In this document: positions 538 through 44,090 of the stretch, piece after piece
Numbering within the stretch: position 1 is the first letter of the stretch
Layout: the number at the start of each line of letters is the position of its first letter
Position numbers and translations under genes: made by a program
Origin: Naegleria gruberi
Taxonomy: Eukaryota
NCBI GenBank assembly: GCA_000004985.1
Contig: GG738965.1
Length of the DNA stretch: 44,786 nt
Reading direction: 5' to 3' (one strand)
The notes under the pieces: generated by a model
Databases searched by the model: none
The model's input: only the letters and a program-made list of their open reading frames with translations
What the model was told of the DNA's origin: nothing

Positions 538-2661
538 TTATTTATTTTTAATTAAAATAGATTGACCTGACATTTCAATATTTTTATAACATTTAAAAAT
601 ATTAATATTTGAATTTTTAAATAATTTAAATTCCCATGTATTTTCTAAATTATTTTTAAAATTTTCAATTGTATTTTTTTTAAATACATATTTAGTAATA
701 ATTTTATAACTTGAACGATTTTTTCTTGTTTGTTTATGAAGAGGTTGACAACAATTAATTACTATAAATGTATTATTATATTCAGTTACACAAATTAAAT
801 CTCTATAAAAACAAATTTCATTTAAATAATCTTCATTAACATTTTCTTTAATTGTAAATTCTAATTTTCCTTTTTTAGTATTATTTAATTTATTAAATTC
901 TAAAATATAAATATCATCATCAATTACAATATCACTAGGTTTACCTAAACTTCCTTTTTTAATACAAATTAATTCTTTAACATGTTTTTTTTGATAATAT
1001 ATTGTTTTATAATAATTTAAATTTAATATTTCATTATTATTACCATTTATATTATTATTATTAGAATTATTAGATAATTCATTTGATGATTTAATTGATT
1101 CAGTAAATTCTTCCAATGATAATTGTTTTTTAGTATTATTATTTGTATTAATATTATTATTATTATTATTGGTTGTATTGTTAATATTTTTTGAATTATT
1201 ATTTGATGATTTTAATTTTTTTCTATTTAATTGTTTTGATTGTTTTGAAAAAGTTAAATAACANNNNNNNNNNNNNNNNNNNNNNNNNNNNNNNNNNNNN
1301 NNNNNNNNNNNNNNNNNNNNNNNNNNNNNNNNNNNNNNNNNNNNNNNNNNNNNNNNNNNNNNNNNNNNNNNNNNNNNNNNNNNNNNNNNNNNNNNNNNNN
1401 NNNNNNNNNNNNNNNNNNNNNNNNNNNNNNNNNNNNNNNNNNNNNNNNNNNNNNNNNNNNNNNNNNNNNNNNNNNNNNNNNNNNNNNNNNNNNNNNNNNN
1501 NNNNNNNNNNNNNNNNNNNNNNNNNNNNNNNNNNNNNNNNNNNNNNNNNNNNNNNNNNNNNNNNNNNNNNNNNNNNNNNNNNNNNNNNNNNNNNNNNNNN
1601 NNNNNNNNNNNNNNNNNNNNNNNNNNNNNNNNNNNNNNNNNNNNNNNNNNNNNNNNNNNNNNNNNNNNNNNNNNNNNNNNNNNNNNNNNNNNNNNNNNNN
1701 NNNNNNNNNNNNNNNNNNNNNNNNNNNNNNNNNNNNNNNNNNNNNNNNNNNNNNNNNNNNNNNNNNNNNNNNNNNNNNNNNNNNNNNNNNNNNNNNNNNN
1801 NNNNNNNNNNNNNNNNNNNNNNNNNNNNNNNNNNNNNNNNNNNNNNNNNNNNNNNNNNNNNNNNNNNNNNNNNNNNNNNNNNNNNNNNNNNNNNNNNNNN
1901 NNNNNNNNNNNNNNNNNNNNNNNNNNNNNNNNNNNNNNNNNNNNNNNNNNNNNNNNNNNNNNNNNNNNNNNNNNNNNNNNNNNNNNNNNNNNNNNNNNNN
2001 NNNNNNNNNNNNNNNNNNNNNNNNNNNNNNNNNNNNNNNNNNNNNNNNNNNNNNNNNNNNNNNNNNNNNNNNNNNNNNNNNNNNNNNNNNNNNNNNNNNN
2101 NNNNNNNNNNNNNNNNNNNNNNNNNNNNNNNNNNNNNNNNNNNNNNNNNNNNNNNNNNNNNNNNNNNNNNNNNNNNNNNNNNNNNNNNNNNNNNNNNNNN
2201 NNNNNNNNNNNNNNNNNNNNNNNNNNNNNNNNNNNNNNNNNNNNNNNNNNNNNNNNNNNNNNNNNNNNNNNNNNNNNNNNNNNNNNNNNNNNNNNNNNNN
2301 NNNNNNNNNNNNNNNNNNNNNNNNNNNNNNNNNNNNNNNNNNNNNNNNNNNNNNNNNNNNNNNNNNNNNNNNNNNNNNNNNNNNNNNNNNNNNNNNNNNN
2401 NNNNNNNNNNNNNNNNNNNNNNNNNNNNNNNNNNNNNNNNNNNNNNNNNNNNNNNNNNNNNNNNNNNNNNNNNNNNNNNNNNNNNNNNNNNNNNNNNNNN
2501 NNNNNNNNNNNNNNNNNNNNNNNNNNNNNNNNNNNNNNNNNNNNNNNNNNNNNNNNNNNNNNNNNNNNNNNNNNNNNNNNNNNNNNNNNNNNNACAGCAG
2601 GAACAGGTGAAGAAGGATCAGTGGAGATATATACTTCCAACAAATTTAAATATTTAACCAT
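538..2661 (-). CDS. hypothetical poly-Asn protein, middle 1264-2593 masked
   Basis: ATG at 2661-2659 (MVKYLNLLEVYISTDPSSPVPA) runs into the mask. The same frame resumes at 1263 and ends at TAA (plus tta 538-540). The 241-aa visible C-terminal part has Asn homopolymers and a Lys-rich globular tail with no family I can name. Convergent with the previous gene; stops are 37 nt apart. Confidence 0.5.
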   Translation of the reverse strand: MVKYLNLLEVYISTDPSSPVPAXXXXXXXXXXXXXXXXXXXXXXXXXXXXXXXXXXXXXXXXXXXXXXXXXXXXXXXXXXXXXXXXXXXXXXXXXXXXXXXXXXXXXXXXXXXXXXXXXXXXXXXXXXXXXXXXXXXXXXXXXXXXXXXXXXXXXXXXXXXXXXXXXXXXXXXXXXXXXXXXXXXXXXXXXXXXXXXXXXXXXXXXXXXXXXXXXXXXXXXXXXXXXXXXXXXXXXXXXXXXXXXXXXXXXXXXXXXXXXXXXXXXXXXXXXXXXXXXXXXXXXXXXXXXXXXXXXXXXXXXXXXXXXXXXXXXXXXXXXXXXXXXXXXXXXXXXXXXXXXXXXXXXXXXXXXXXXXXXXXXXXXXXXXXXXXXXXXXXXXXXXXXXXXXXXXXXXXXXXXXXXXXXXXXXXXXXXXXXXXXXXXXXXXXXXXXXXXXXXXXXXXXXXXXXXXXXXXXXXXXXXXXCYLTFSKQSKQLNRKKLKSSNNNSKNINNTTNNNNNNINTNNNTKKQLSLEEFTESIKSSNELSNNSNNNNINGNNNEILNLNYYKTIYYQKKHVKELICIKKGSLGKPSDIVIDDDIYILEFNKLNNTKKGKLEFTIKENVNEDYLNEICFYRDLICVTEYNNTFIVINCCQPLHKQTRKNRSSYKIITKYVFKKNTIENFKNNLENTWEFKLFKNSNINIFKCYKNIEMSGQSILIKNK
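1152..1170 (-). repeat. (ATT)n / (AAT)n trinucleotide run encoding poly-Asn
   Basis: tattattattattattatt seen directly; lies within the coding sequence of the 538-2661 gene. Confidence 0.7.
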
Positions 2662-2825: not shown

Positions 2826-4298
2826 CTATTTTCTTGTCATTTCCTCATCATCAATTTCTTCCAAATCTTCTTCTTCTTCCTTATCACTGTTAAGTGAATC
2901 TAAATCATCTGATAATCTTGTACTTGAATCATCATTATCTGATTTTGAAATATTCTTCTTCATTTCTTCTTCATTATCATTATCATTGTTATTATCATCC
3001 TTATTATCATCATTATTATCATTCTTATTTAATAAATTAATTGATTTTAAAATATGATAATGTTTAAAACATTCTAAATGATTATTTCTTTTTAACCATG
3101 GTTTATAAAATTTTAATTCCTTTCTAATAGATTTACGTGAATGTTGAATTGGATCTGGATATTTCATTAATTGATACATTTCAGAATTAGTTTGATCAAA
3201 CATTTCAAAAAGTAAATCAATAAAAAAAGGATTATATAAACCAGTACGTGTCATTCTATGAATTTTAAATATTTCAATTGCTTTTTCAACATTTTCAATA
3301 ATTTTCTTTTTTAATAAATAATAACAAATTACAAAACCAGTTCTATTTAAACCATGTGTACAATGAATTAAAATATATTTAGTAGGATTATTAGAAATAT
3401 ATAAATCAATATCATTTACAATTGTATCCATTTGTTCTGTAAATAATTTTACATTTAAATTCTTATTTAAATCATGAATATTCATATAATATGATAAATA
3501 TTTCATATTTAAAGGTAAATCATTCTTTTTATAAAATTCAACACAACATAAATCAATTATTAATCCAATATCTTGTTCATATTTGGTATTAAAATGTTCT
3601 TGTATTAATGAAATGGATGAATTATTTGGATATTTAAAATATTGTGGACTTAATGGACATTTAAGTGGAATAAATTTAGTATTGGGTATTAATTCTCCAA
3701 ATAAGGGTGTTACTTGTGGCCAACCTTTGGGAATTTTACGATACTTCTTAGAATTGGAAAAATAATTTCTAATTACATTTTGACTTGAATTATTTAAATT
3801 ATTATCTAAATTATTATTATCTAAATTATTATTATTTAAATTATTATTTAAATTATTATCTAAATTATTATTATTGGTGGAAGAGGAGGTGGTAGTATTA
3901 TTATTATTATTATCATTGGTGGTATTTAAATTATCTGATGATGATGATGTATTTGAAGATAGTTGATTAATATAATCTGTTACATTCCGTATGGCAAATG
4001 GATATTTTGAAATATAATTTTCATTATTATAATAGTTTCCTCCTCCTGTTGAATATGATGATGATGATGTAGTAGTATTATTATTAGATGATCCATTATT
4101 ATCATCATTAGATGATGAATTTGTACTATTATTTGTGTAAGAAGAAGAATCGGAGTAGTTTTGATATTTTTGTTTCTTGTAATTTCGTCTCCTATATGAT
4201 GATGATCCACTTCTTGAATTTCCATAATTATTATATCCACCATCATGATGGTATGATCTCTTTTCACTACTACGATGATGATTATTACTATCACTCAT
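2826..4298 (-). CDS. stand-alone cysteine-phosphatase-fold RNA 5'-phosphatase (DUSP11/PIR1-like or mRNA-capping-enzyme triphosphatase-like), 490 aa
   Basis: Uninterrupted ORF from ATG 4298 to stop at 2826. Central domain carries KIPKGWPQVTPLFGELIPNTKFIPLKCPL, IGLIIDLCCVEFYKKNDLP and the P-loop ILIHCTHGLNRTGFVICYYLL (HCxxGxxRT). These match DUSP11 (VHCTHGLNRTGYLICRYL) and the Mce1 triphosphatase domain (VHCTHGFNRTGF). No KxDG guanylyltransferase domain follows. N-terminal third is a Ser/Asn/Tyr/Arg low-complexity region and the C-terminus is an acidic Asp/Glu/Asn tail. Confidence 0.7.
   Translation of the reverse strand: MSDSNNHHRSSEKRSYHHDGGYNNYGNSRSGSSSYRRRNYKKQKYQNYSDSSSYTNNSTNSSSNDDNNGSSNNNTTTSSSSYSTGGGNYYNNENYISKYPFAIRNVTDYINQLSSNTSSSSDNLNTTNDNNNNNTTTSSSTNNNNLDNNLNNNLNNNNLDNNNLDNNLNNSSQNVIRNYFSNSKKYRKIPKGWPQVTPLFGELIPNTKFIPLKCPLSPQYFKYPNNSSISLIQEHFNTKYEQDIGLIIDLCCVEFYKKNDLPLNMKYLSYYMNIHDLNKNLNVKLFTEQMDTIVNDIDLYISNNPTKYILIHCTHGLNRTGFVICYYLLKKKIIENVEKAIEIFKIHRMTRTGLYNPFFIDLLFEMFDQTNSEMYQLMKYPDPIQHSRKSIRKELKFYKPWLKRNNHLECFKHYHILKSINLLNKNDNNDDNKDDNNNDNDNEEEMKKNISKSDNDDSSTRLSDDLDSLNSDKEEEEDLEEIDDEEMTRK
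3791..3875 (-). repeat. imperfect 12-18-nt tandem repeat (taaattattatt variants) encoding NNLDNN/NNLNNN reiterations
   Basis: Direct reading of the plus strand: ttatctaaattattattatctaaattattattatttaaattattatttaaattattatctaaattattattatt. In frame within the phosphatase N-terminal low-complexity region. Confidence 0.65.
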
Positions 4299-4554
4299 GA
4301 TGATGAAATAGTTCTTTTAGTATAACGGCTTTTTTTTGAATATTTTGAATCTAATAATTAGTTGAAGATATTATTGTGATTCTAATTGACTCTCCTGAGA
4401 TATCGAGATTACAAGTTAGGAGCCGAATTATTCTAGTGTAGGGAGTAGTTTGATGTACTTTAATCTAGTTATCATTTTGTATTATTTATAAGAACATCAG
4501 TTGTTTGTTGTATGAAGAGAATGATTTTCAAAGCCTAAAAAAAGAAGCAACATA
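4299..4554. promoter_or_regulatory. divergent promoter region between the RNA phosphatase gene (-) and the Hip gene (+)
   Basis: 256-nt non-coding interval flanked by two head-to-head start codons (4298 minus, 4555 plus). No specific motif identified. Confidence 0.35.
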
Positions 4555-6272
4555 ATGGAGGGTATCAAGTTTTCAGCCTTACAACTAGATTCCTTGAAGC
4601 AATTTGTAAAGGTTTGTTGTATTTATATATTACATTTCATTATAAGTGCAACGAATAATAATAATAGTATATTAAATACAATCCGAGAGTTTNNNNNNNN
4701 NNNNNNNNNNNNNNNNNNNNNNNNNNNNNNNNNNNNNNNNNNNNNNNNNNNNNNNNNNNNNNNNNNNNNNNNNNNNNNNNNNNNNNNNNNNNNNNNNNNN
4801 NNNNNNNNNNNNNNNNNNNNNNNNNNNNNNNNNNNNNNNNNNNNNNNNNNNNNNNNNNNNNNNNNNNNNNNNNNNNNNNNNNNNNNNNNNNNNNNNNNNN
4901 NNNNNNNNNNNNNNNNNNNNNNNNNNNNNNNNNNNNNNNNNNNNNNNNNNNNNNNNNNNNNNNNNNNNNNNNNNNNNNNNNNNNNNNNNNNNNNNNNNNN
5001 NNNNNNNNNNNNNNNNNNNNNNNNNNNNNNNNNNNNNNNNNNNNNNNNNNNNNNNNNNNNNNNNNNNNNNNNNNNNNNNNNNNNNNNNNNNNNNNNNNNN
5101 NNNNNNNNNNNNNNNNNNNNNNNNNNNNNNNNNNNNNNNNNNNNNNNNNNNNNNNNNNNNNNNNNNNNNNNNNNNNNNNNNNNNNNNNNNNNNNNNNNNN
5201 NNNNNNNNNNNNNNNNNNNNNNNNNNNNNNNNNNNNNNNNNNNNNNNNNNNNNNNNNNNNNNNNNNNNNNNNNNNNNNNNNNNNNNNNNNNNNNNNNNNN
5301 NNNNNNNNNNNNNNNNNNNNNNNNNNNNNNNNNNNNNNNNNNNNNNNNNNNNNNNNNNNNNNNNNNNNNNNNNNNNNNNNNNNNNNNNNNNNNNNNNNNN
5401 NNNNNNNNNNNNNNNNNNNNNNNNNNNNNNNNNNNNNNNNNNNNNNNNNNNNNNNNNNNNNNNNNNNNNNNNNNNNNNNNNNNNNNNNNNNNNNNNNNNN
5501 NNNNNNNNNNNNNNNNNNNNNNNNNNNNNNNNNNNNNNNNNNNNNNNNNNNNNNNNNNNNNNNNNNNNNNNNNNNNNNNNNNNNNNNNNNNNNNNNNNNN
5601 NNNNNNNNNNNNNNNNNNNNNNNNNNNNNNNNNNNNNNNNNNNNNNNNNNNNNNNNNNNNNNNNNNNNNNNNNNNNNNNNNNNNNNNNNNNNNNNNNNNN
5701 NNNNNNNNNNNNNNNNNNNNNNNNNNNNNNNNNNNNNNNNNNNNNNNNNNNNNNNNNNNNNNNNNNNNNNNNNNNNNNNNNNNNNNNNNNNNNNNNNNNN
5801 NNNNNNNNNNNNNNNNNNNNNNNNNNNNNNNNNNNNNNNNNNNNNNNNNNNNNNNNNNNNNNNNNNNNNNNNNNNNNNNNNNNNNNNNNNNNNNNNNNNN
5901 NNNNNNNNNNNNNNNNNNNNNNNNNNNNNNNNNNNNNNNNNNNNNNNNNNNNNNNNNNNNNNNNNNNNNNNNNNNNNNNNNNNNNNNNNNNNNNNNNNNN
6001 NNNNNNNNNNNNNNNNNNNNNNNNNNNNNNNNNNNNNNNNNNNNNNNNNNNNNNNNNNNNNNNNNNNNNNNNNNNAACTTTGTCATCCACATGTAATGAA
6101 ACTTGTTTCTGGAGATGAATATTTAATGAAAGGATTTCAAAATCCAAGACTCGTAAATGCAATTAATGAAATTGCTATGAATCCATCAGCCTTCTTGAAA
6201 TATAATCATGACATTGAGGTTGTAACAATGTTTAAAAAGTTTACAGAAATTATAGGAAAGGCAAATAAATAA
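4555..6272 (+). CDS. Hsc70-interacting protein (Hip/ST13-like co-chaperone); join(4555..4611,4668..6272), interior 4693-6075 masked
   Basis: Exon 1 MEGIKFSALQLDSLKQFVK ends at a GT donor (gtttgt, 4612). A 56-nt AT-rich intron ends ...aataatag (4667). Exon 2 begins YIKYNPRV, which matches the Hip N-terminus [23 protein letters not shown]. After the mask, in frame 0, KLVSGDEYLMKGFQNPRLVNAINEIAMNPSAFLKYNHDIEVVTMFKKFTEIIGKANK* (stop 6270-6272) aligns with the Hip C-terminal STI1/DP domain ([49 protein letters not shown]). The ORF-track end at 6096 is a different frame. The join across the mask is inferred. Confidence 0.55.
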
Positions 6273-6374
6273 TTGGCAATTCTCTTAATCAAGTTGATAT
6301 ATTGTAAAGAATTTGATTGTAGAAGAACAATGAACAATGTGATTGTCTTATTACTAATAATATCATAAATAAAA

Positions 6375-6933
6375 ATGTCAAAAGTTAATGATGAACTAGA
6401 TTGTAATGAAATTGTTCCACGATTATTTCTCGGAAGTGAAGATGCTGCCTATGCAGATATCAATATATTAAAAGGAGAACCCTATAAATTCACTCATATT
6501 TGTGTATGTGGTTTCGGGCTCATTAAGAAACATGAGAAAACATCTCAAATTGAATATCATCATATCAAGGCTGTTGATTTACCAGTTTATAACATTACAA
6601 AAGATGTCAAATCATGTGCAGAGTTTATTGACAATGCACTGAATGGAGATGAAAATAATAGAGTACTTGTTCATGTAGGTTTGTTCTGATTAAAATTCAA
6701 ATAGGAACATATTAACTACAAACATTATCTAAATAATCATCATTGTAATTATATTAAATTATTATTATTAAAAGTGTTCAAGAGGAGTGAGTAGAAGTGC
6801 CTCCATAGTAACAGCCTACTTGATGTTGAAGAAGGGAATGACATTTGAAGAAGCATACTATGGTAATGTAAAGAAGAAACGTTCCATTGTTTGTCTCAAT
6901 CAAGGATTTGCAGAACAATTAAAAGGCTTGTAA
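6375..6933 (+). CDS. small classical dual-specificity protein phosphatase (DUSP), 153 aa; join(6375..6674,6775..6933)
   Basis: Exon 1 (MSKVNDELDC...RVLVH) ends at donor gtaggt (6675). A 100-nt AT-rich intron ends ...ttattaaaag (6774). Exon 2 CSRGVSRSASIVTAYLMLKKGMTFEEAYYGNVKKKRSIVCLNQGFAEQLKGL* (stop 6931-6933) restores the catalytic motif VHCSRGVSRS (CX5R). Upstream LFLGSEDAAYA and the acid loop AVDLPVYNI are typical DUSP. A-rich start context aaaaATG. Confidence 0.75.
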
Positions 6934-8142
6934 ATTACTAAAGAACAATAGAATATTGTGGTGATGTAATCAGAATTGAAACAAGCCATCCATCATCACT
7001 CTCGTATCGCTGTTGGTTTGTCTCATAGCAACGTTGATGATGTTGGTGTACAACAAGCAGATTAATTGCCATCATGATACCACAATGAACCCTTTATCCG
7101 TAAATCATCATTGATTCCAATATTTCAGCAACAATATTTGCGCAATCAGGCATGTTCACAACAAAATGATTGATGGTGATGAGATTGCCAGTAGGGAACA
7201 ATTGTGTTTTCTTCCTCTTGTTTGCAAAGTTTTTTAGCGGGTTTTTCCAAGTGAAAGAAGAAAACTTTGTTGTTAAAAAAACGAATCACAAAAATATTAG
7301 CGAACAAGTTGTTTGCCGCGCTTTTTGATTTTTTCAAAAGTAAAAAAACGATAAAGATTACCATCGCTCCGGTTTTCGTCATCACACAGCAGTAATTTAT
7401 ATAGATCATCATCATTTGNNNNNNNNNNNNNNNNNNNNNNNNNNNNNNNNNNNNNNNNNNNNNNNNNNNNNNNNNNNNNNNNNNNNNNNNNNNNNNNNNN
7501 NNNNNNNNNNNNNNNNNNNNNNNNNNNNNNNNNNNNNNNNNNNNNNNNNNNNNNNNNNNNNNNNNNNNNNNNNNNNNNNNNNNNNNNNNNNNNNNNNNNN
7601 NNNNNNNNNNNNNNNNNNNNNNNNNNNNNNNNNNNNNNNNNNNNNNNNNNNNNNNNNNNNNNNNNNNNNNNNNNNNNNNNNNNNNNNNNNNNNNNNNNNN
7701 NNNNNNNNNNNNNNNNNNNNNNNNNNNNNNNNNNNNNNNNNNNNNNNNNNNNNNNNNNNNNNNNNNNNNNNNNNNNNNNNNNNNNNNNNNNNNNNNNNNN
7801 NNNNNNNNNNNNNNNNNNNNNNNNNNNNNNNNNNNNNNNNNNNNNNNNNNNNNNNNNNNNNNNNNNNNNNNNNNNNNNNNNNNNNNNNNNNNNNNNNNNN
7901 NNNNNNNNNNNNNNNNNNNNNNNNNNNNNNNNNNNNNNNNNNNNNNNNNNNNNNNNNNNNNNNNNNNNNNNNNNNNNNNNNNNNNNNNNNNNNNNNNNNN
8001 NNNNNNNNNNNNNNNNNNNNNNNNNNNNNNNNNNNNNNNNNNNNNNNNNNNNNNNNNNNNNNNNNNNNNNNNNNNNNNNNNNNNNNNNNNNNNNNNNNNN
8101 NNNNNNNNNNNNNNNNNNNNNNNNNNNNNNNNNNNNNNNNNA

Positions 8143-8884: not shown

Positions 8885-9419
8885 TTTTGAGTATTAATTT
8901 TTCAATCATATGAAGAAATATATGTACTATACACAGGTACCAAATTTCAAAATTTCATCTCTTAAAACCATAGAAAGAATAATCTCAGTTTAGACACTTT
9001 TTTTTTTCCTATTAAAAATATTTTTATTTCCATGTTAAATGAGCCAATCTACATATTCACAAATATTCCATTCACAACCCATGGCTGGTAAGAATAGAGT
9101 GGTCAAAGGGCAAGCTTCGCTATTTCAAATCCCACCTTCTGCAGATTTTATTTCCATATTTTTCGATTGAAATATATTTCCTAATACGTTTTTATCACAA
9201 TCTGCAAAGTTGGTATTCAGATGAAAATTTCATCAATTATTCCCCTATGAATATAATATTTATTAACAATTTTTAATTTTGAATTAATAGAACGGTTTCT
9301 GCTATTTCAAAATCTCGCGAATAATAATTGAGAATCTCAAATTGTGTATTCTCACTCATGACATCATCACATTGTAACTCGTGATAATTGTTTCCCTTCA
9401 GTTCCATAAATTAAAAAAA

Positions 9420-9911
9420 ATGTCAAACTTTGTTGATCTACCATCCGAGTTGCAAATTGAAATATTTTCCAATCTCTCTGTTAAACATTTAAAAAACATT
9501 CTTTCTATTAACAAATCAACTCATGAGCAATTGGTTCAATCAGAAACTTTTTGGAGAACTTTGATCAAGAATTATTCGAAATTGTTAGGAAGTGATTCTA
9601 GAGTTGAAAAATCAGTACAAGAATTATTAGAAATTGCAGAAATCAAGAAAAAATTCATTGAATTGATAGAAATGAAAAAGAGAACCACTGAAGAATTCCA
9701 AATGACATCTCTGAAATTAAAATACATGTTGAGAGAATTAGAAATGGCTCAGAGAGAAATGCAAGCAGGAAATGAAAGTGTTTTGCTATTAGGAGGAACC
9801 ATCAGCGATCAGCTCAATATTGGAATGGAAAGAATGAAACAAGAATGTGAAAGTGTGAAAAAGGAAAAGGAAGAAATTGAAGAAAAGTTAAGGAAATTGA
9901 TTATTGATTAA
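9420..9911 (+). CDS. F-box domain protein with C-terminal coiled coil, 163 aa
   Basis: ATG at 9420 in context ttaaaaaaaaATG. The track start at 9381 is a GTG codon. F-box consensus LPSELQIEIFSNLSVKHLKNILSINKSTHEQLVQSETFW. The remainder is a Glu/Lys-rich heptad-like region. Stop TAA 9909-9911. Confidence 0.7.
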   Translation: MSNFVDLPSELQIEIFSNLSVKHLKNILSINKSTHEQLVQSETFWRTLIKNYSKLLGSDSRVEKSVQELLEIAEIKKKFIELIEMKKRTTEEFQMTSLKLKYMLRELEMAQREMQAGNESVLLLGGTISDQLNIGMERMKQECESVKKEKEEIEEKLRKLIID

Positions 9912-10705: not shown

Positions 10706-12011
10706 TTAGTATGAATAAGGTTGAAAATTGAATACAATCCAAACATAGGTGAATGATCCAACAATAACACAAAACGAGACAAACATGATAATGATTTGAA
10801 TAATAAATCCCAACCATTTCTTTTCCTTCTTAATCATACATAAAATTGTAATGAATGCAAATGAAGTGATCAAGTAAGCAATTGTAATGCAAATAAAATA
10901 ACCTCTTGAAATGGAAATTATTTTGAATGCCATGACAATTCCACACAATCCTTCAAATATAGCAAGTAATATTAAATAACCAATGAGTAGAAATATGGCA
11001 TTCAATCTATAAACATGTTCTTGATTAACTAAATTGTTGTCACATGTCTCTTCATTATTCACCTGTTCTTGATTCGAATTGTTTTGAGGAGTATAACTCA
11101 TGTCAAGTTTAGAATTAAATAAAGTTTGCTTGATGGTGTGTAAGTGCTTTCTCAGTTTTACAGAGATTGTCTCTTTGAAAGTAATCATCTCTTGATTCGA
11201 TTTCTTCTTTCCATTCTTTTTTTCCTTAATCCATAAAAGTAATTTTTCACCAAGAGTAATTTTAGGAACATTCGAATACAGAGCTCTATAGAATGGCATT
11301 ATAAATTCCAATAAAGAAAGTAAAAGTAATGAAGAAATCAATGGTTGAAAGAAATTGAAAATATTCCACTTTCCAAATGTCTTTTCATACTTTACAATAA
11401 TTGGAATTAAATAAAGTAAATGNNNNNNNNNNNNNNNNNNNNNNNNNNNNNNNNNNNNNNNNNNNNNNNNNNNNNNNNNNNNNNNNNNNNNNNNNNNNNN
11501 NNNNNNNNNNNNNNNNNNNNNNNNNNNNNNNNNNNNNNNNNNNNNNNNNNNNNNNNNNNNNNNNNNNNNNNNNNNNNNNNNNNNNNNNNNNNNNNNNNNN
11601 NNNNNNNNNNNNNNNNNNNNNNNNNNNNNNNNNNNNNNNNNNNNNNNNNNNNNNNNNNNNNNNNNNNNNNNNNNNNNNNNNNNNNNNNNNNNNNNNNNNN
11701 NNNNNNNNNNNNNNNNNNNNNNNNNNNNNNNNNNNNNNNNNNNNNNNNNNNNNNNNNNNNNNNNNNNNNNNATATTCATCTTTTACTCTTGATGGATATT
11801 TTTCAATGAATGAATTATTTCCTAAATTAATAAAAAGAGTTTCTTCTGAATCAGGAGTTTCATGATTATCAGTACTATGAGAATTAGTTTGTGAAAAATT
11901 TAGATCGTTATTGGGTGAGTCAAGTATTGTTTGTATTTCGTCTTGATTATTCTCATTCCGATCATTATTAGAAAGTAAATGTTGTGATTCACCTTCCTCT
12001 TTGTTTGACAT
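10706..12011 (-). CDS. multi-pass membrane protein with hydrophilic N-terminal extension (hypothetical); interior 11423-11771 masked
   Basis: Start ATG at 12011-12009 in context aaaaaaaATGtcaaac (MSNKEEGESQHLLSNNDRNENNQDEIQ...FIEKYPSRVKDEY). After the mask a different frame carries at least six hydrophobic helices and ends VWIVFNFQPYSY* at 10706. The frame change implies an intron or indel inside the mask. The track's MKSISKYEMEMFWKIVRISLKK extension is less likely. Confidence 0.5.
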
Positions 12012-12131
12012 TTTTTTTAAAGAGATTCTTACAATCTTCCAAAACATTTCCATTTCATATTTTGAAATTGATTTCACACCACCTAATAATATATTTAATT
12101 GAATAAAAATTATATTAATTTAATAAAAAAA
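12012..12131. promoter_or_regulatory. 120-nt bidirectional promoter interval between the membrane-protein gene (-) and the GNAT gene (+)
   Basis: Head-to-head ATGs at 12011 (minus) and 12132 (plus) separated by AT-rich sequence with A-runs adjacent to both starts. Confidence 0.4.
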
Positions 12132-12662
12132 ATGAGTAAACCAAGTAGTGATAATAATAATTTCATCACATTCAGAGCAGCAACGGAACAAGATGGACCA
12201 CAAATTCTAGAAATGGTCACTCAAATTCTTACTAAATATGGTCTTAAACAAATTCAAGATCCTTCCGATAATATTGATGATGATTTATTAAATATTGAAA
12301 AGTATTACTTTACAAATAATGGTTATTTAGAAATAGTTGAATTAAATTCCAATTCTTCATCCATTGAATCAAAAATTATTGCCAGTTGTGGAATTTATAA
12401 ATTATCCGAAAGTAAATGTGAATTGAGAAAAATGTATTTGAGAGAGGAATATAGAGGAAAGGGATTAGGTAGAAAATTATTGGAAAGAGCCATAGAAAAA
12501 GCTAAGGAAATGAATTATAAACAAATGGAATTGGAAACTGCTTCTGTTTTAGTGGAGGCACTTGCATTGTATGAAAAATTTGGATTTTCAAGAGTTATTG
12601 ATTGTGAGGATAAACATTTATGTTCAAGATGTGATATTATTATGATTAAAGATTTAGTTTAA
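12132..12662 (+). CDS. GNAT-family N-acetyltransferase, 176 aa
   Basis: ATG 12132 in aaaaaaaATGagt; the track start at 12099 is a TTG codon. Acetyl-CoA binding motif A seen as LRKMYLREEYRGKGLGRKLLERAIEKAKEMNYKQMELET (R/QxxGxG/A), followed by ALYEKFGF, typical of the GNAT fold. Stop TAA 12660-12662. Confidence 0.8.
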   Translation: MSKPSSDNNNFITFRAATEQDGPQILEMVTQILTKYGLKQIQDPSDNIDDDLLNIEKYYFTNNGYLEIVELNSNSSSIESKIIASCGIYKLSESKCELRKMYLREEYRGKGLGRKLLERAIEKAKEMNYKQMELETASVLVEALALYEKFGFSRVIDCEDKHLCSRCDIIMIKDLV

Positions 12663-40892: not shown

Positions 40893-41396
40893 AATTTTGA
40901 TTTGGCAAGTAAACTCAACTCCATTTGAAAAGAATCTGTAACGATAATATTTTATTCAACAAAATGCTAATTTCTCGATGGAATTAAGGTAGTTTTGAAA
41001 TCTGACTTCAAATTATGAATCCTCGCATTGACATACCCCTTGGGGTGGCAGCATTCTCAAAAATATGTAGAAATGAGTAAGAACGAGTGGTTAGGTGTTG
41101 TTCTATTGACATGCTTATTTTGGATTTGACAGCAGAAGAACAACAAAATTTTTTCTAAATAATTTATTTTCTTTCAAAAAACGCGTCAAATTTGAAGTAA
41201 ACGTGCTGTAAAACCCTTAAAATTTCCAATCTTATGTGAATTAATGTTTCAACTCATAATATGGCAAGCTTGAAAATCAAAATGATAATAATATTAGACA
41301 GACATTTCTTCCTTTTCAGAGAAGATGCTTCACAAAGATCCAAAACAGAGATGGGATACAATTCAGTGTCTTGAACCTTTGAAATATAGATATTAG
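40893..41396 (+). pseudogene. decayed CaMK-group protein kinase (subdomains VII-XI) with multiple in-frame stops; 5' part lies in the mask
   Basis: One reading frame (positions congruent to 0 mod 3) carries NFDLASKL (degenerate xIxDFGLAxK), then ILALTYPLGWQHSQKYVEMSKNEWLGVVLLTCLF (compare GTPxYxAPE...KYSxKxDIWSLGVVLYELL), then DISSFSEKMLHKDPKQRWDTIQCLEPLKYRY* (compare LLxKDPKKRxTxxQxLxHPW). That frame is broken by stops at 40926, 40965, 41016, 41127 and 41295. The +1 frame holds YFGFDSRRTTKFFLNNLFSFKKRVKFEV, resembling the [21 protein letters not shown] segment of DAPK/MLCK kinases. The spurious minus ORF start MELSLLAKSK at 40924 is antisense to this. Confidence 0.45.
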
Positions 41397-43307
41397 GACT
41401 TTTCTATCTTGCTTAAGATTTAATAATATAAGATCTATCAAATCGAGCAATGTGCTTAACAGAAACACCAGATAAAATAGCTCAGCGTTTTGTTATAGAG
41501 CTCTTGAATGAATCATTCAAAATAGTATTGGTGAGATAATGTAGTCAATCCATGAATATATTCTTTATAAAATACACCTTTTAATATGTCCTTACAAGGT
41601 GGCCTTTTGTCTGGATTGTAATGTAACTTATCTTTCCATCAAAATAATCCTCCAAATTTCTCTTCTCTATCAAAATTTTCACAACTTGTTTTCCATACCA
41701 CAAATCGATTTTGCAATCATCTAAATGTTTCACTAATTATGTTAAATTGTATAATATTTTGTAAAATGGACCAGTTATCCCTTCGCCTTTACATTTAAAG
41801 GAAAGATAGCATTGAACCACTGTTTTGAAACCAATGCACAATTCATTACAATCATCATGAAATGATAAAATTTCATAAATTACATCGTTCGAATGTTTCT
41901 CCTGTGAGTTGTGACATTTTTTGATGATGACAAGTTGATTCCTATCAACAACATGTTACTCCAATAGTTGTAAAAACAATTTGTAGAAAAGATATTATTG
42001 GTTCCTTCAATAGAACGGATAGGGTTGTTTTCAAAACATTCTGTTGAGAACAAAATTGGGAAAAACCTTAAAATTTCAAATCTTTCGTGGATATCATGAT
42101 TATNNNNNNNNNNNNNNNNNNNNNNNNNNNNNNNNNNNNNNNNNNNNNNNNNNNNNNNNNNNNNNNNNNNNNNNNNNNNNNNNNNNNNNNNNNNNNNNNN
42201 NNNNNNNNNNNNNNNNNNNNNNNNNNNNNNNNNNNNNNNNNNNNNNNNNNNNNNNNNNNNNNNNNNNNNNNNNNNNNNNNNNNNNNNNNNNNNNNNNNNN
42301 NNNNNNNNNNNNNNNNNNNNNNNNNNNNNNNNNNNNNNNNNNNNNNNNNNNNNNNNNNNNNNNNNNNNNNNNNNNNNNNNNNNNNNNNNNNNNNNNNNNN
42401 NNNNNNNNNNNNNNNNNNNNNNNNNNNNNNNNNNNNNNNNNNNNNNNNNNNNNNNNNNNNNNNNNNNNNNNNNNNNNNNNNNNNNNNNNNNNNNNNNNNN
42501 NNNNNNNNNNNNNNNNNNNNNNNNNNNNNNNNNNNNNNNNNNNNNNNNNNNNNNNNNNNNNNNNNNNNNNNNNNNNNNNNNNNNNNNNNNNNNNNNNNNN
42601 NNNNNNNNNNNNNNNNNNNNNNNNNNNNNNNNNNNNNNNNNNNNNNNNNNNNNNNNNNNNNNNNNNNNNNNNNNNNNNNNNNNNNNNNNNNNNNNNNNNN
42701 NNNNNNNNNNNNNNNNNNNNNNNNNNNNNNNNNNNNNNNNNNNNNNNNNNNNNNNNNNNNNNNNNNNNNNNNNNNNNNNNNNNNNNNNNNNNNNNNNNNN
42801 NNNNNNNNNNNNNNNNNNNNNNNNNNNNNNNNNNNNNNNNNNNNNNNNNNNNNNNNNNNNNNNNNNNNNNNNNNNNNNNNNNNNNNNNNNNNNNNNNNNN
42901 NNNNNNNNNNNNNNNNNNNNNNNNNNNNNNNNNNNNNNNNNNNNNNNNNNNNNNNNNNNNNNNNNNNNNNNNNNNNNNNNNNNNNNNNNNNNNNNNNNNN
43001 NNNNNNNNNNNNNNNNNNNNNNNNNNNNNNNNNNNNNNNNNNNNNNNNNNNNNNNNNNNNNNNNNNNNNNNNNNNNNNNNNNNNNNNNNNNNNNNNNNNN
43101 NNNNNNNNNNNNNNNNNNNNNNNNNNNNNNNNNNNNNNNNNNNNNNNNNNNNNNNNNNNNNNNNNNNNNNNNNNNNNNNNNNNNNNNNNNNNNNNNNNNN
43201 NNNNNNNNNNNNNNNNNNNNNNNNNNNNNNNNNNNNNNNNNNNNNNNNNNNNNNNNNNNNNNNNNNNNNNNNNNNNNNNNNNNNNNNNNNNNNNNNNNNN
43301 NNNNNNT

Positions 43308-44090
43308 TTTGCTGGTGAAAAGGAACCAAAAGCACTCTTTCCTGGTTCAGATGATGTGAATCAGCTTGAAAAGATATTTGAATGGTGTGGTACTCCTTCA
43401 ACGGAAGAATGGGCTGAGGTTGAAAATCTTGCTCATTGGAATGCTCTTAAACCAAAAGAATCAAAGAAGAGAAGACTCTTGGAAAGATTTGCAAACTTGA
43501 AATCATGCTCAAAGAAGGTTCTAGATTTACTTGATAAGCTTCTTGTGCTTAATCCTGCCAAACGATTAACAACCAATGAATGCTTAAATCACGACTGGTT
43601 CTGGGAAAAGGGTTCCACAACCAATATCAAACTCAAAAATCTTCCTTCAACAGCTACTAATGAATTCCTTACAAGAAAGAAGGGTGATAACAAACCAAAT
43701 GCACCTTCACATCAATTACCAGGTTCTACCAGTGTCCAACAGTTGCCACACAATATTAATCAGAGCTATGGTGTTTCATCTACATCATCCTCTCATCCAC
43801 CATTTGGTAGTAGTAATGGTAACAGACATTCCTATAATCCCTCTCACCATCATCAATCGTCACACCATAGCAGTCATCATTCGAACACTAGCTCCTCTCA
43901 CCATAATGGTAGCTCACATCATAATAGTCACCACCATCACCAATCATCACATCACCACTCTAGTAGCTCACATCATGGCTCAACTGGTTCAGGTCATTCC
44001 AATAATTATCATCGTGACAATAGGCATCACCATGATCCTCCTCAAAGAAATAACCAATTAGCACCTCCAAATAAGAAGGTTAAATATTAA
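43308..44090 (+). CDS. CDK9/P-TEFb-type cyclin-dependent kinase, C-terminal lobe plus His/Ser-rich tail (catalytic N-terminal part in mask 42104-43306; true start undetermined)
   Basis: FAGEKEPKALFPGSDDVNQLEKIFEWCGTPSTEEWAEVENLAHWNALKPKESKKRRLLERFANL... VLDLLDKLLVLNPAKRLTTNECLNHDWFWE aligns with human CDK9 ...PIMQGNTEQHQLALISQLCGSITPEVWPNV... ALDLIDKLLVLDPAQRIDSDDALNHDFFW. It is followed by ~150 aa of low complexity ending ...PPNKKVKY* (TAA 44088-44090). The frame-0 ORF is continuous into the mask from 42087, and another frame has an ATG at 42044. Confidence 0.7.
   Translation, partial: FAGEKEPKALFPGSDDVNQLEKIFEWCGTPSTEEWAEVENLAHWNALKPKESKKRRLLERFANLKSCSKKVLDLLDKLLVLNPAKRLTTNECLNHDWFWEKGSTTNIKLKNLPSTATNEFLTRKKGDNKPNAPSHQLPGSTSVQQLPHNINQSYGVSSTSSSHPPFGSSNGNRHSYNPSHHHQSSHHSSHHSNTSSSHHNGSSHHNSHHHHQSSHHHSSSSHHGSTGSGHSNNYHRDNRHHHDPPQRNNQLAPPNKKVKY
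43850..44040 (+). repeat. cat/cac/agc-rich coding low-complexity tract encoding (S/H)n: SHHHQSSHHSSHHSNTSSSHHNGSSHHNSHHHHQSSHHHSSSSHH
   Basis: Seen directly in the CDK tail. The antisense shadow ORF 43660-44061 is an artefact of this repeat. Confidence 0.65.

What the first reader, a model, noticed from the sequence alone, without database searches (positions are those of the whole stretch)
43308..44090. CDK9-type kinase carrying its own histidine-rich tail
In metazoan P-TEFb the histidine-rich segment that contacts the Pol II CTD is on cyclin T, not on CDK9. Here the kinase subunit ends with ~110 aa of (S/H)n (SHHHQSSHHSSHHS...HHHHQSSHHHSSSSHH) plus a basic KKVKY end. It may be lineage-specific low complexity. 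But fusing a His-rich CTD-binding-like tract to the kinase would be a notable rearrangement of the P-TEFb architecture.
Basis: partly seen in the sequence, partly recalled or inferred. Interest (0 to 1): 0.5.

Follow-up and report, generated by a model that had tools for sequence, protein, structure and literature searches.

The report
Histidine-rich tail on Naegleria transcription kinase
The window holds the last third of an already-annotated Naegleria gruberi kinase of the CDK9/CDK12 family, whose disordered histidine/serine-rich tail is real and shared by related amoebae, but it is an ordinary low-complexity tail and shows no sign of being a domain moved over from cyclin T.

Summary
Window 43308-44090 (+) is an open frame ending in TAA. 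It encodes the last 100 residues of a CDK kinase domain and a 160-residue tail. The tail's 71-residue core is 37% His and 31% Ser, and it ends in PPNKKVKY.

The window is a gap-ridden Naegleria gruberi scaffold. The rest of the gene lies in a 1203-N gap. The fragment is 100% identical to residues 408-667 of a full-length annotated N. gruberi protein (XP_002671051, 667 aa).

That protein belongs to the transcription-elongation CDK9/CDK12/CDKC family. The evidence is a PITSIRE helix, an alpha-D glycine, and a post-kinase NEF-RKK helix.

"CDK9-type" is not established. CDK12/13 score slightly higher than CDK9, and both the tree backbone and subfamily profiles are unresolved.

The His-rich composition and the terminal motif are shared by Naegleria-like, Willaertia and Acrasis orthologues. 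Similar tails occur in Balamuthia and Rhodelphis homologues. Other low-complexity tracts in the window are Asn/Ser-rich, not His-rich.

The most likely role is a disordered targeting tail plus a nuclear import signal. Kinase-borne disordered tails are normal in this family, and DYRK1A already carries its own His-rich domain.

Modest interest: a new member of a known kind.

The parts
42104..43306 (.). Assembly gap (1203 N) hiding the 5' part of the gene: the N arm, the N-lobe and most of the C-lobe (residues 1-407 of the full-length protein).
   Evidence: N-run map. The fragment equals residues 408-667 of P0272. No N-arm or kinase coding sequence is visible in 40893-42103.
43308..43607 (+). End of the kinase C-lobe (FAGEKEPKALF...NHDWFWE); residues 408-507 of XP_002671051.
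   Evidence: Pfam Pkinase. PDB phmmer finds CDK9, CDK12 and CDK1. pLDDT is 87-97 in the alignment-based AF2 model.
43641..43685 (+). Post-kinase C-terminal extension LPSTATNEFLTRKKG. It is the equivalent of the CDK12 DCHEL / CDK9 FEY 'HE motif + basic cluster' helix. Asn replaces His and the basic cluster is short (RKK).
   Evidence: Alignment A1: P520 and E526 invariant; L519, H525 and K530 at least 90% conserved. Predicted helix at 526-534, with mean pLDDT 91 for residues 521-530 and 68 for 531-540. The motif is described in PMC3973122.
43686..43820 (+). Ser/Pro/Gln/Asn-rich linker (DNKPNAPSHQLPGSTS...GSSNG). Only its start (APSHxL) aligns with close orthologues.
   Evidence: Tail alignment. 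pLDDT <50.
43821..44033 (+). His/Ser-rich core: 71 aa, 37% His and 31% Ser, built of (S2-4 H2-4) units. The longest His run is 4.
   Evidence: No tandem DNA repeat. pLDDT <50 and no secondary structure.
44001..44087 (+). Conserved terminal motif NNYHRD..R.HHD(A/P)P....APP(N/S/Y)KK(V/L)KY. The last 8 residues (44064-44087) form a K-K-x-K basic cluster, which I read as a nuclear localisation signal (inference).
   Evidence: The motif aligns across N. gruberi, L001, L003, Willaertia magna P0126 and Acrasis kona P0004.
44088..44090 (+). Stop codon TAA, followed by a second in-frame TAA.

Best explanation
SHOWN. The window carries the last 783 nt of the final exon of a gap-truncated second copy of N. 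gruberi gene NAEGRDRAFT_53182. That gene encodes XP_002671051 (UniProt D2VY61), 667 aa. The window copy is annotated XP_002668727, 'cell cycle dependent kinase C, partial'. The protein has three parts: a 216-aa disordered Asn/Ser/Thr-rich N arm with 7% His, a CDK catalytic domain of the transcription-elongation CDK9/CDK12/CDK13/CDKC/Ctk1 family, and a 160-aa disordered tail. Within that family the subfamily is unresolved; the nearest relatives are protist and plant 'CDKC' kinases.

SHOWN. The tail begins with the family's ATP-site-contacting helix (NEF...RKK). It continues as a His/Ser-rich low-complexity region and ends in a conserved HHD(A/P)P...APPxKKxKY motif. His-rich composition and the terminal motif are kept across the heterolobosean orthologues (two Naegleria-like genomes, Willaertia, Acrasis), while the intervening sequence and its length are not.

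INFERRED. The His/Ser tract is a compositionally selected disordered region. It acts as a weak, multivalent targeting module that concentrates the kinase on the Ser/Pro-rich Pol II tail or in nuclear transcription/splicing bodies. This is the role reported for the His-rich domains of human cyclin T1 and DYRK1A. The terminal KKVK cluster is a nuclear import signal.

INFERRED. The tract arose by compositional change in the disordered tail that kinases of this family ordinarily carry, not by transfer of a cyclin T domain.
For: Identity. P0001 is 100% identical on a contig of exactly 44786 bp. It shares a cluster with full-length P0272, and the fragment is identical to residues 408-667.

Family. 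P0272 has GFPITSIREI, DHDLAGL (the alpha-D glycine), DFG and YTNRVVTRWYRPPE. PDB phmmer gives CDK12 274.6, CDK13 265, CDK9 255.5, Ctk1 231 and the best cell-cycle CDK 229 bits. The top Foldseek hits are CDK12/13, then CDK9. The best database hits are Acrasis kona CDKC-1, then protists, plant CDKC-1/-2 and Balamuthia CDKC-1. The NJ tree separates the family from CDK2/CDK7 with 72% bootstrap support. In a 53-sequence alignment E526 of the extension is invariant. That extension is a defining feature of CTD elongation kinases (PMC3973122).

Disorder. The N arm and residues 539-667 have pLDDT <50 and no secondary structure, while the kinase domain has pLDDT 75-97.

Conservation. N. gruberi groups with L001 (93%), then L003 (98%), Willaertia (100%) and Acrasis (73%). 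All 6 members of the heterolobosean-type NJ clade scored (the window tail itself scores 45%) have at least 15% His in a 40-aa window of the C tail, with median tail His of 14%. The comparison groups are 17/59 other CDKC/CDK9-grade members and 8/86 CDK12/13-clade members. The terminal motif aligns. His uses both codons, Ser uses all six, and there is no tandem repeat.

Specificity. Other low-complexity tracts in the window, L001 and L003 are Asn/Ser/Thr-rich with at most 10% His per 40 aa.

Precedent. P-TEFb and DYRK1A enter condensates through His-rich low-complexity domains (PMC7948595, citing Lu et al. 2018).
Against: No functional data exist for this protein. The function of the tail rests on analogy only. 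The His tracts are short (at most 4 in a row) and interleaved with Ser, unlike the 13-His run of DYRK1A (from my own knowledge). One analysis reports that the N. gruberi Rpb1 C-terminal extension is Ser/Pro-rich but lacks heptad repeat structure (PMC3646058), so the human CTD analogy may not carry over. The N arm is also somewhat His-rich (7%), and His-rich patches occur in the N arms of 13/86 CDK12-clade proteins. His enrichment may therefore be a diffuse property of these disordered regions and not a discrete module. No proteome-wide null could be computed. The local control is only about 20 ORFs.
Confidence: 0.55

Rival explanations
1. Neutral low complexity. The His/Ser tract is a by-product of replication slippage and compositional drift in a disordered tail whose only constrained parts are the NEF-RKK helix and the terminal basic motif. 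The His-richness itself does nothing.
For: The sequence and length of the tract are not conserved between orthologues: tails are 160, 217 and 168 aa and only the ends align. The N. gruberi genes in the window are full of homopolymer-like tracts. The tail-only database search found nothing alignable.
Against: His enrichment persists across a clade reaching Acrasis and Willaertia, despite complete sequence turnover. The default low-complexity flavour nearby is Asn/Ser/Thr, not His. Mixed codon usage and the absence of tandem DNA repeats argue against recent slippage. His-rich tails recur in distant homologues from Balamuthia and Rhodelphis.
Confidence: 0.3
2. This is the P-TEFb kinase (a strict CDK9 orthologue pairing with cyclin T). 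In Heterolobosea the CTD-binding His-rich domain sits on the kinase instead of the cyclin, a true redistribution of P-TEFb modules.
For: NCBI and UniRef name the closest annotated relatives CDKC; from my own knowledge, plant CDKC is treated as the plant P-TEFb kinase, which was not checked here. The fragment alone scores marginally best against CDK9. His-rich domains are linked to CTD hyperphosphorylation (PMC7948595).
Against: The full catalytic domain does not prefer CDK9. It has PITSIRE, not PITALRE. An earlier phylogeny puts plant CdkC in the CTK1/CrkRS (CDK12) subclade, not the BUR1/CDK9 subclade (PMC521075). Homology between low-complexity His tracts cannot be shown. The cyclin partner and its sequence are unknown.
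Confidence: 0.1
3. The (S/H)n tract is a metal-binding or pH-sensing element (Zn2+/Ni2+/Cu2+ chelation, or protonation near pH 6) that regulates the kinase. It is unrelated to Pol II targeting.
For: Dense clusters of HH/HHH/HHHH separated by Ser resemble metal-chelating His tracts. This is general chemistry and was not tested here.
Against: There is no Cys/His pattern and no ordered structure. The spacing is not conserved among orthologues. Nothing in the locus suggests metal biology.
Confidence: 0.05

Closest known systems
Plant and protist CDKC kinases (Arabidopsis/Zea CDKC;1/CDKC;2, Acrasis kona CDKC-1, Balamuthia CDKC-1)
   Same: They are the best database matches: 45-55% identity over the catalytic domain. 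The layout is the same, with a kinase domain, an (H/N)E + basic helix and then a 100-200 aa disordered low-complexity tail containing a basic KRxK/KKxK cluster. The Balamuthia and Acrasis tails are also His/Ser-enriched.
   Different: Plant tails are Gly/Pro/Tyr/Gln/Arg-rich, not His-rich (P0059). Plants have PITAIRE and HE; Naegleria has PITSIRE and NE. Naegleria adds a 216-aa N arm.
Human CDK12/CDK13 (cyclin K partners) and yeast Ctk1
   Same: They give the highest sequence and structure scores among solved structures. The PITSIRE helix is identical to Ctk1. The C-terminal extension helix contacting the ATP site is shared (PMC3973122). They also have long disordered arms on both sides of the kinase domain.
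   Different: The protein lies outside the 97%-supported metazoan-type CDK12/13 clade. Its arms are N/S/T/H-rich, not classic RS/Pro-rich, and it is far shorter (667 aa against a median of 1037 aa).
Human CDK9 / cyclin T1 (P-TEFb) with the cyclin T1 histidine-rich domain
   Same: It belongs to the same kinase family (255.5 bits, 44% identity). A His-rich disordered segment is associated with the kinase complex (PMC7948595).
   Different: Human CDK9 is 372 aa with a 45-aa tail containing one His (sequence verified). Its His-rich domain is on the cyclin. Here the tract is on the kinase and is Ser-interleaved, and whether the partner cyclin is T-type is unknown.
DYRK1A (CMGC kinase with its own His-rich domain)
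   Same: It is a CTD kinase that carries a His-rich low-complexity segment in cis, C-terminal to the catalytic domain, and uses it to enter condensates (PMC7948595).
   Different: It is a different CMGC family (DYRK, not CDK) and does not depend on a cyclin. Its tract is a near-pure His run (from my own knowledge) rather than (S/H)n.
PRP4K/PRPF4B N-terminal KKHK / His-rich regions
   Same: It is another nuclear CMGC kinase whose disordered arm is annotated Lys/His- or His-rich in several eukaryotes. A Naegleria orthologue is included in the same figure (PMC8912934).
   Different: The His-rich region is N-terminal, the kinase acts in splicing, and there is no sequence relationship outside the kinase fold.

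Membership tests
CDK9/CDK12/CDK13/CDKC/Ctk1/Bur1 transcription-elongation CTD kinases | PITA(L/I)RE-type cyclin-binding alpha-C helix | tested here: met
   Full-length N. gruberi P0272 has GFPITSIREI, identical to yeast Ctk1 in PDB 7jv7_A. This region is not visible in the window because it lies in the gap.
CDK9/CDK12/CDK13/CDKC/Ctk1/Bur1 transcription-elongation CTD kinases | Glycine in helix alpha-D (DHDLxGL), which lets the C-terminal extension reach the nucleotide (PMC3973122) | tested here: met
   P0272 has EYVDHDLAGL. G299 is at least 90% conserved in alignment A1.
CDK9/CDK12/CDK13/CDKC/Ctk1/Bur1 transcription-elongation CTD kinases | [quoted passage not shown] | tested here: inconclusive
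   Window 43641-43685 encodes LPSTATNEFLTRKKG. Glu is invariant and Pro520 is invariant, but His is replaced by Asn in the heterolobosean clade, and the basic cluster is only RKK. AF2 predicts a confident helix at 526-534.
CDK9/CDK12/CDK13/CDKC/Ctk1/Bur1 transcription-elongation CTD kinases | Catalytic domain groups with the family and not with cell-cycle CDKs or CDK7 | tested here: met
   The NJ tree of 153 kinase domains separates the family from CDK2+CDK7 with 72% bootstrap support. PDB scores are CDK12/13/9 at 255-275 bits against the best cell-cycle CDK at 229 bits. The margin is moderate; Kimura distances to CDK2 and CDK9 are similar.
CDK9/CDK12/CDK13/CDKC/Ctk1/Bur1 transcription-elongation CTD kinases | Pairs with a cyclin T or K and phosphorylates the Pol II tail | not testable with these tools
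   No N. gruberi cyclin sequence could be retrieved, and there are no biochemical data.
CDK9 sensu stricto (P-TEFb kinase; BUR1/CDK9 subclade) | Closer to CDK9/Bur1 than to CDK12/Ctk1/CDKC | tested here: not met
   CDK12 scores 274.6 against CDK9 255.5 bits. BLAST gives 45.3% and 266 bits against 44.1% and 245 bits. Foldseek ranks 1-11 are CDK12/13. Subfamily profiles are equal at 338-346 bits. There is no supported grouping with human CDK9.
CDK9 sensu stricto (P-TEFb kinase; BUR1/CDK9 subclade) | PITALRE motif and a compact ~370-aa architecture | tested here: not met
   The motif is PITSIRE. The protein is 667 aa with a 216-aa N arm and a 160-aa tail.
Metazoan-type CDK12/CDK13 | Falls inside the CDK12/13 clade | tested here: not met
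   The 86-sequence clade containing human CDK12 has 97% bootstrap support and excludes the Naegleria group, yeast Ctk1, plant CDKC and CDK9.
Metazoan-type CDK12/CDK13 | Long RS-rich N-terminal arm | tested here: inconclusive
   The N arm is 216 aa and N/S/T-rich with 8% Arg. It opens with an R/D/S-rich stretch (RRNYHGDYNDRRSRDDVDNRERRHSGGRS), but there are no RS dipeptide arrays.
His-rich low-complexity domains of CTD kinases (cyclin T1 HRD, DYRK1A HRD): a functional class, not a homology family | Strong His enrichment in a disordered segment attached to a CTD-kinase complex | tested here: met
   The 71-aa core is 37% His and the best 40-aa window is 45% His. P=1e-25 against the local background. 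pLDDT is <50 with no secondary structure.
His-rich low-complexity domains of CTD kinases (cyclin T1 HRD, DYRK1A HRD): a functional class, not a homology family | Binds the Pol II CTD or drives co-condensation and boosts CTD hyperphosphorylation | not testable with these tools
   This needs biochemistry. One paper reports that the N. gruberi Rpb1 tail lacks heptad repeat structure (PMC3646058).

The most novel reading that the evidence does not exclude
His-rich disordered segments have been attached repeatedly and independently to Pol II-tail kinases: on the cyclin in vertebrate P-TEFb, on the kinase in DYRK1A, and on the kinase in heterolobosean, Balamuthia and Rhodelphis CDKC-type enzymes. 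That would imply a general physico-chemical affinity between His-rich disordered regions and Ser/Pro-rich Pol II tails. This affinity would predate canonical heptads, or be independent of them, because Naegleria's Rpb1 tail is reported to lack repeat structure.
Probability: 0.2. Interest if true: 0.55.

Novelty: new member of a known kind. Interest (0 to 1): 0.28.

Why it matters
If the tail really targets the kinase to the Pol II tail or to nuclear bodies, the heterolobosean enzymes would be a natural experiment. They would show that the His-rich module of the elongation-kinase machinery can sit on either subunit, and that it works with a non-canonical Pol II tail. That would support the idea that composition rather than sequence drives kinase-substrate co-condensation. 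As it stands, this is an annotated gene with an unusual but unexplained low-complexity flavour. It is useful mainly as a comparative data point, and as a caution that 'CDK9' labels on protist kinases are not resolved.

Tried and rejected
1. Classifying the visible fragment alone. CDK9, CDK12 and CDK1 all fall within 4.5 bits of each other, so it is not discriminating.

2. Synteny between the window and the orthologous loci L001 and L003. Only the kinase exon matches. Nothing upstream of the gap (40893-42103) encodes the N arm.

3. Retrieving the 250-kb scaffold that carries full-length P0272. It is not on record.

4. A database search with the tail alone, to see whether S/H-rich tracts are common in N. 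gruberi. There were 324 word-sharing candidates and none scored E<=10, not even the protein itself, presumably because of composition filtering.

5. Single-sequence AlphaFold2 of P0272. Mean pLDDT was 34.5, even in the kinase domain, so the model is uninformative. It was replaced by a 53-sequence alignment run.

6. NCBIfam scan. It returned only generic bacterial Ser/Thr-kinase models.

7. Finding the cognate cyclin. No practical query exists, because any cyclin T/K query would return only its 120 nearest, metazoan, relatives.

8. Resolving CDK9 against CDK12 by NJ bootstrap and by subfamily HMMs. Both were unresolved.

9. Literature. No paper describes this kinase or its tail. The Lu 2018 and Qiu 2009 papers are not held. 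They are cited only through papers that cite them, and the statement that the Bur1 C-terminal region binds the CTD rests on my own knowledge.

10. A tandem-repeat origin for the tract. Rejected.
Full report
WHAT IS IN THE WINDOW

The window is 72% N. It has six gaps, one of them 27,103 nt long. The finding's interval follows directly after a 1203-N gap (42104-43306).

From 43308 the + strand is open for 260 codons and stops at TAA 44088-44090. A search of 5.8 billion proteins returned a 100% match over the full length. The match is 'cell cycle dependent kinase C, partial [Naegleria gruberi]', on a contig of exactly 44,786 bp. The window is therefore a whole small scaffold of the N. gruberi draft genome, and the N runs are real assembly gaps.

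OBSERVATION

The first 100 residues are the end of a protein-kinase C-lobe (Pfam Pkinase; PDB phmmer). The remaining 160 residues are 22% Ser, 18% His and 12% Asn.

- The dense core is 71 residues (window 43821-44033), with 26 His and 22 Ser arranged as (S2-4 H2-4) units.
- The best 40-residue window is 45% His.
- The ten other ORFs in the window average 2.07% His, giving a binomial P=6e-19 for the tail and 1e-25 for the core.
- Tandem Repeats Finder finds nothing. His uses CAT and CAC (20:11) and Ser uses all six codons. The tract is maintained at the protein level and is not a fresh microsatellite.

The strictly S/H-rich part is about 70 aa, not about 110. And only a third of the kinase domain is visible.

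RECOVERING THE REST OF THE PROTEIN

Cluster look-up showed that the fragment shares a 90% cluster with a full-length N. gruberi protein. This is XP_002671051 / NAEGRDRAFT_53182 / UniProt D2VY61, 667 aa, on a 250-kb scaffold. The window fragment is identical to its residues 408-667. The window copy is therefore a redundant or allelic, gap-truncated copy of an already annotated gene.

Independently, I rebuilt two orthologues from Naegleria-like contigs:

- L001: three exons with GT-AG introns, 846 aa.
- L003: 655 aa.

All three proteins share one plan: a 190-330 aa low-complexity N arm, the kinase domain, and a His/Ser-rich tail.

WHICH KINASE FAMILY

The full-length protein has GFPITSIREI, DHDLAGL, DFG and YTNRVVTRWYRPPE.

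- PITSIRE is identical to yeast Ctk1, verified against PDB 7jv7_A.
- The alpha-D glycine and a post-kinase 'HE + polybasic' helix are the hallmarks of CTD elongation kinases (Bösken et al. 2014, PMC3973122).
- Here the helix reads NEFLTRKKG (window 43641-43685). Glu is invariant across a 53-sequence alignment. The usual His is Asn in the whole heterolobosean clade. AlphaFold2 with that alignment predicts a confident helix at this position.
- Against solved structures the catalytic domain scores CDK12 274.6, CDK13 265, CDK9 255.5, Ctk1 231 and the best cell-cycle CDK 229 bits.
- Foldseek ranks eleven CDK12/13 chains first, then CDK9.
- The best hits in the large database are Acrasis kona CDKC-1 (55% identity), unnamed protists, plant CDKC-1/-2 (47-49%) and Balamuthia CDKC-1.

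I built an NJ tree from 153 kinase domains. They comprised 150 representatives from a full-library phmmer search plus anchors: human CDK9, CDK7 and CDK2, verified; human CDK12, taken; and yeast Ctk1. The tree gives the following:

- The family separates from CDK2/CDK7 with 72% bootstrap support.
- N. gruberi groups with L001 (93%), then L003 (98%), then Willaertia magna (100%), then Acrasis kona (73%).
- A metazoan-type CDK12/13 clade of 86 sequences has 97% support and excludes Naegleria, Ctk1, CDKC and CDK9.
- The backbone is unresolved (0-27%).

Subfamily HMMs score the N. gruberi domain equally: CDK12/13 346, CDK9-group 345, Ctk1-group 343, plant CDKC 338. The protist CDKC-grade pool scores 377.

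An earlier Bayesian study placed plant CdkC in the CTK1/CrkRS subclade, not the BUR1/CDK9 subclade (Guo & Stiller 2004, PMC521075).

Conclusion: this is a transcriptional CDK of the CDK9/CDK12 family. 'CDK9-type' is not established, and the small signals that exist lean towards CDK12/Ctk1/CDKC. The refutation condition 'groups with a non-transcriptional CDK' is not met.

IS THE TAIL MORE THAN LINEAGE NOISE?

- Conservation. Tails differ in length (160, 217, 168, 137, 118 aa) and do not align internally. Both ends do align: LPxxxxNE(L/F)xx(R/K)KK, and NNYHRD..HHD(A/P)P..APPxKK(V/L)KY. All six members of the heterolobosean-type clade scored have at least 15% His in a 40-aa window, with a median tail His content of 14%. 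The N. gruberi tail itself, scored separately from the window fragment, reaches 45%.
- Recurrence elsewhere. 17/59 other CDKC/CDK9-grade tails and 8/86 CDK12-clade tails reach 15% His. The clearest cases are Rhodelphis limneticus (37.5%), Balamuthia (20%) and several unnamed protists.
- Specificity. Other low-complexity tracts in the window, L001 and L003 are Asn/Ser/Thr-rich, with up to 60% Asn per 40 aa, and never exceed 10% His per 40 aa in a real frame. This is a small sample of about 20 ORFs, not a proteome census. A tail-only database search meant to widen the sample returned nothing.
- Disorder. The N arm and residues 539-667 have pLDDT <50 and no secondary structure, while the kinase domain has pLDDT 75-97.

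MECHANISM (INFERRED)

The tail is best read as a compositionally constrained disordered region. It is flanked by two short functional motifs: the ATP-site helix and a terminal K-K-x-K cluster that looks like a monopartite nuclear import signal.

By analogy with the His-rich domains of cyclin T1 and DYRK1A, the His/Ser tract probably supplies weak multivalent contacts. Those domains take their kinases into condensates with the Pol II CTD (PMC7948595, citing Lu et al. 2018). Here the contacts would concentrate the kinase on the Ser/Pro-rich Pol II tail or in nuclear bodies.

The analogy is weakened in three ways:

- The His runs are short.
- The N arm is also 7% His.
- One report finds that the N. 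gruberi Rpb1 tail lacks heptad repeat structure (PMC3646058).

AGAINST A 'REARRANGEMENT OF P-TEFb'

Kinases of this family outside animals and fungi ordinarily carry 100-200 aa disordered tails. The short-tailed human CDK9 is the exception. A change in the composition of an existing tail is simpler than a domain transfer, and homology between His tracts cannot be demonstrated.

A CTD kinase with its own His-rich domain already exists (DYRK1A). From my own knowledge, which the tools could not check, the yeast Bur1 C-terminal region also contributes to CTD-dependent recruitment (Qiu et al. 2009, cited in PMC6639251). The cognate Naegleria cyclin could not be retrieved, so the key comparison remains undone.

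VERDICT

The feature is real and the family-level call is correct. The subfamily call and the architectural claim are not supported. The gene is already annotated. The His-rich tail has not been discussed in any paper I could find. It is a compositional variant of a known arrangement. Interest is modest. The most interesting reading still open is convergent recruitment of His-rich disordered regions to Pol II-tail kinases across eukaryotes.

Noticed in passing
window 1264-2593, 4693-6075, 7419-8141, 11423-11771, 13790-40892, 42104-43306: Six runs of N make up 72% of the window, including one of 27,103 nt. The scaffold is a loosely joined set of short contigs. The kinase exon duplicates a gene that is complete on a 250-kb scaffold, so this scaffold may be an allelic or redundant assembly product.
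   Followed up: partly
window 2829-4316 (-) and 6369-6686 (+): Two ORFs match the dual-specificity phosphatase domain (PF00782, 6e-10 and 7e-4). The first carries an extreme Asn/Ser/Thr-rich arm with 60% Asn in its best 40-aa window. This shows the usual low-complexity flavour of this genome.
   Followed up: partly
window 9378-9908 (+) and 12099-12659 (+): An F-box-like ORF (PF12937, 2.8e-4; below Pfam's cut-off) and a GNAT acetyltransferase ORF (PF00583, 8e-16).
   Followed up: no
window 40893-42103 (-): Several short minus-strand ORF pieces (48-73 aa) look like exons of an unidentified gene diverging from the kinase gene. There is no match to the neighbours of the orthologous kinase loci.
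   Followed up: no
P0124 (688 aa) and P0125 (903 aa), from the representative library: Two close relatives of the Acrasis kinase each contain two kinase-domain matches. P0125 has two complete domains, at 126-412 and 576-862. P0124 has two partial ones, at 130-370 and 493-688. They are either tandem paralogues fused by gene calling or true double-kinase proteins.
   Followed up: no
Heterolobosean clade, post-kinase helix (window 43662-43667; P0272 N525-E526): The otherwise at least 90% conserved His of the 'HE motif', which contacts the adenine N3 in CDK12, is Asn in six of the seven aligned heterolobosean-type tails; Willaertia magna P0126 keeps His (RHEL). The Glu stays invariant. This may alter nucleotide handling.
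   Followed up: partly
Willaertia magna P0126 C tail: The APPYKKVK motif that ends the Naegleria proteins is internal in Willaertia. It is followed by about 45 more residues with another HHHH patch, so the motif need not be C-terminal.
   Followed up: no
L003 2920-2944: The L003 orthologue reads 12 codons past the conserved ...KKLKY end (SHREEGHTANDW). This is either a real extension or an unrecognised terminal intron.
   Followed up: no
P0272 residues 1-60 (not in window): The N arm opens with an Arg/Asp/Ser/Asn/Tyr-rich stretch (RRNYHGDYNDRRSRDDVDNRERRHSGGRS). It is reminiscent of the RS/RD regions of splicing-linked kinases. Similar stretches occur in the L003, Willaertia and Acrasis N arms.
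   Followed up: no
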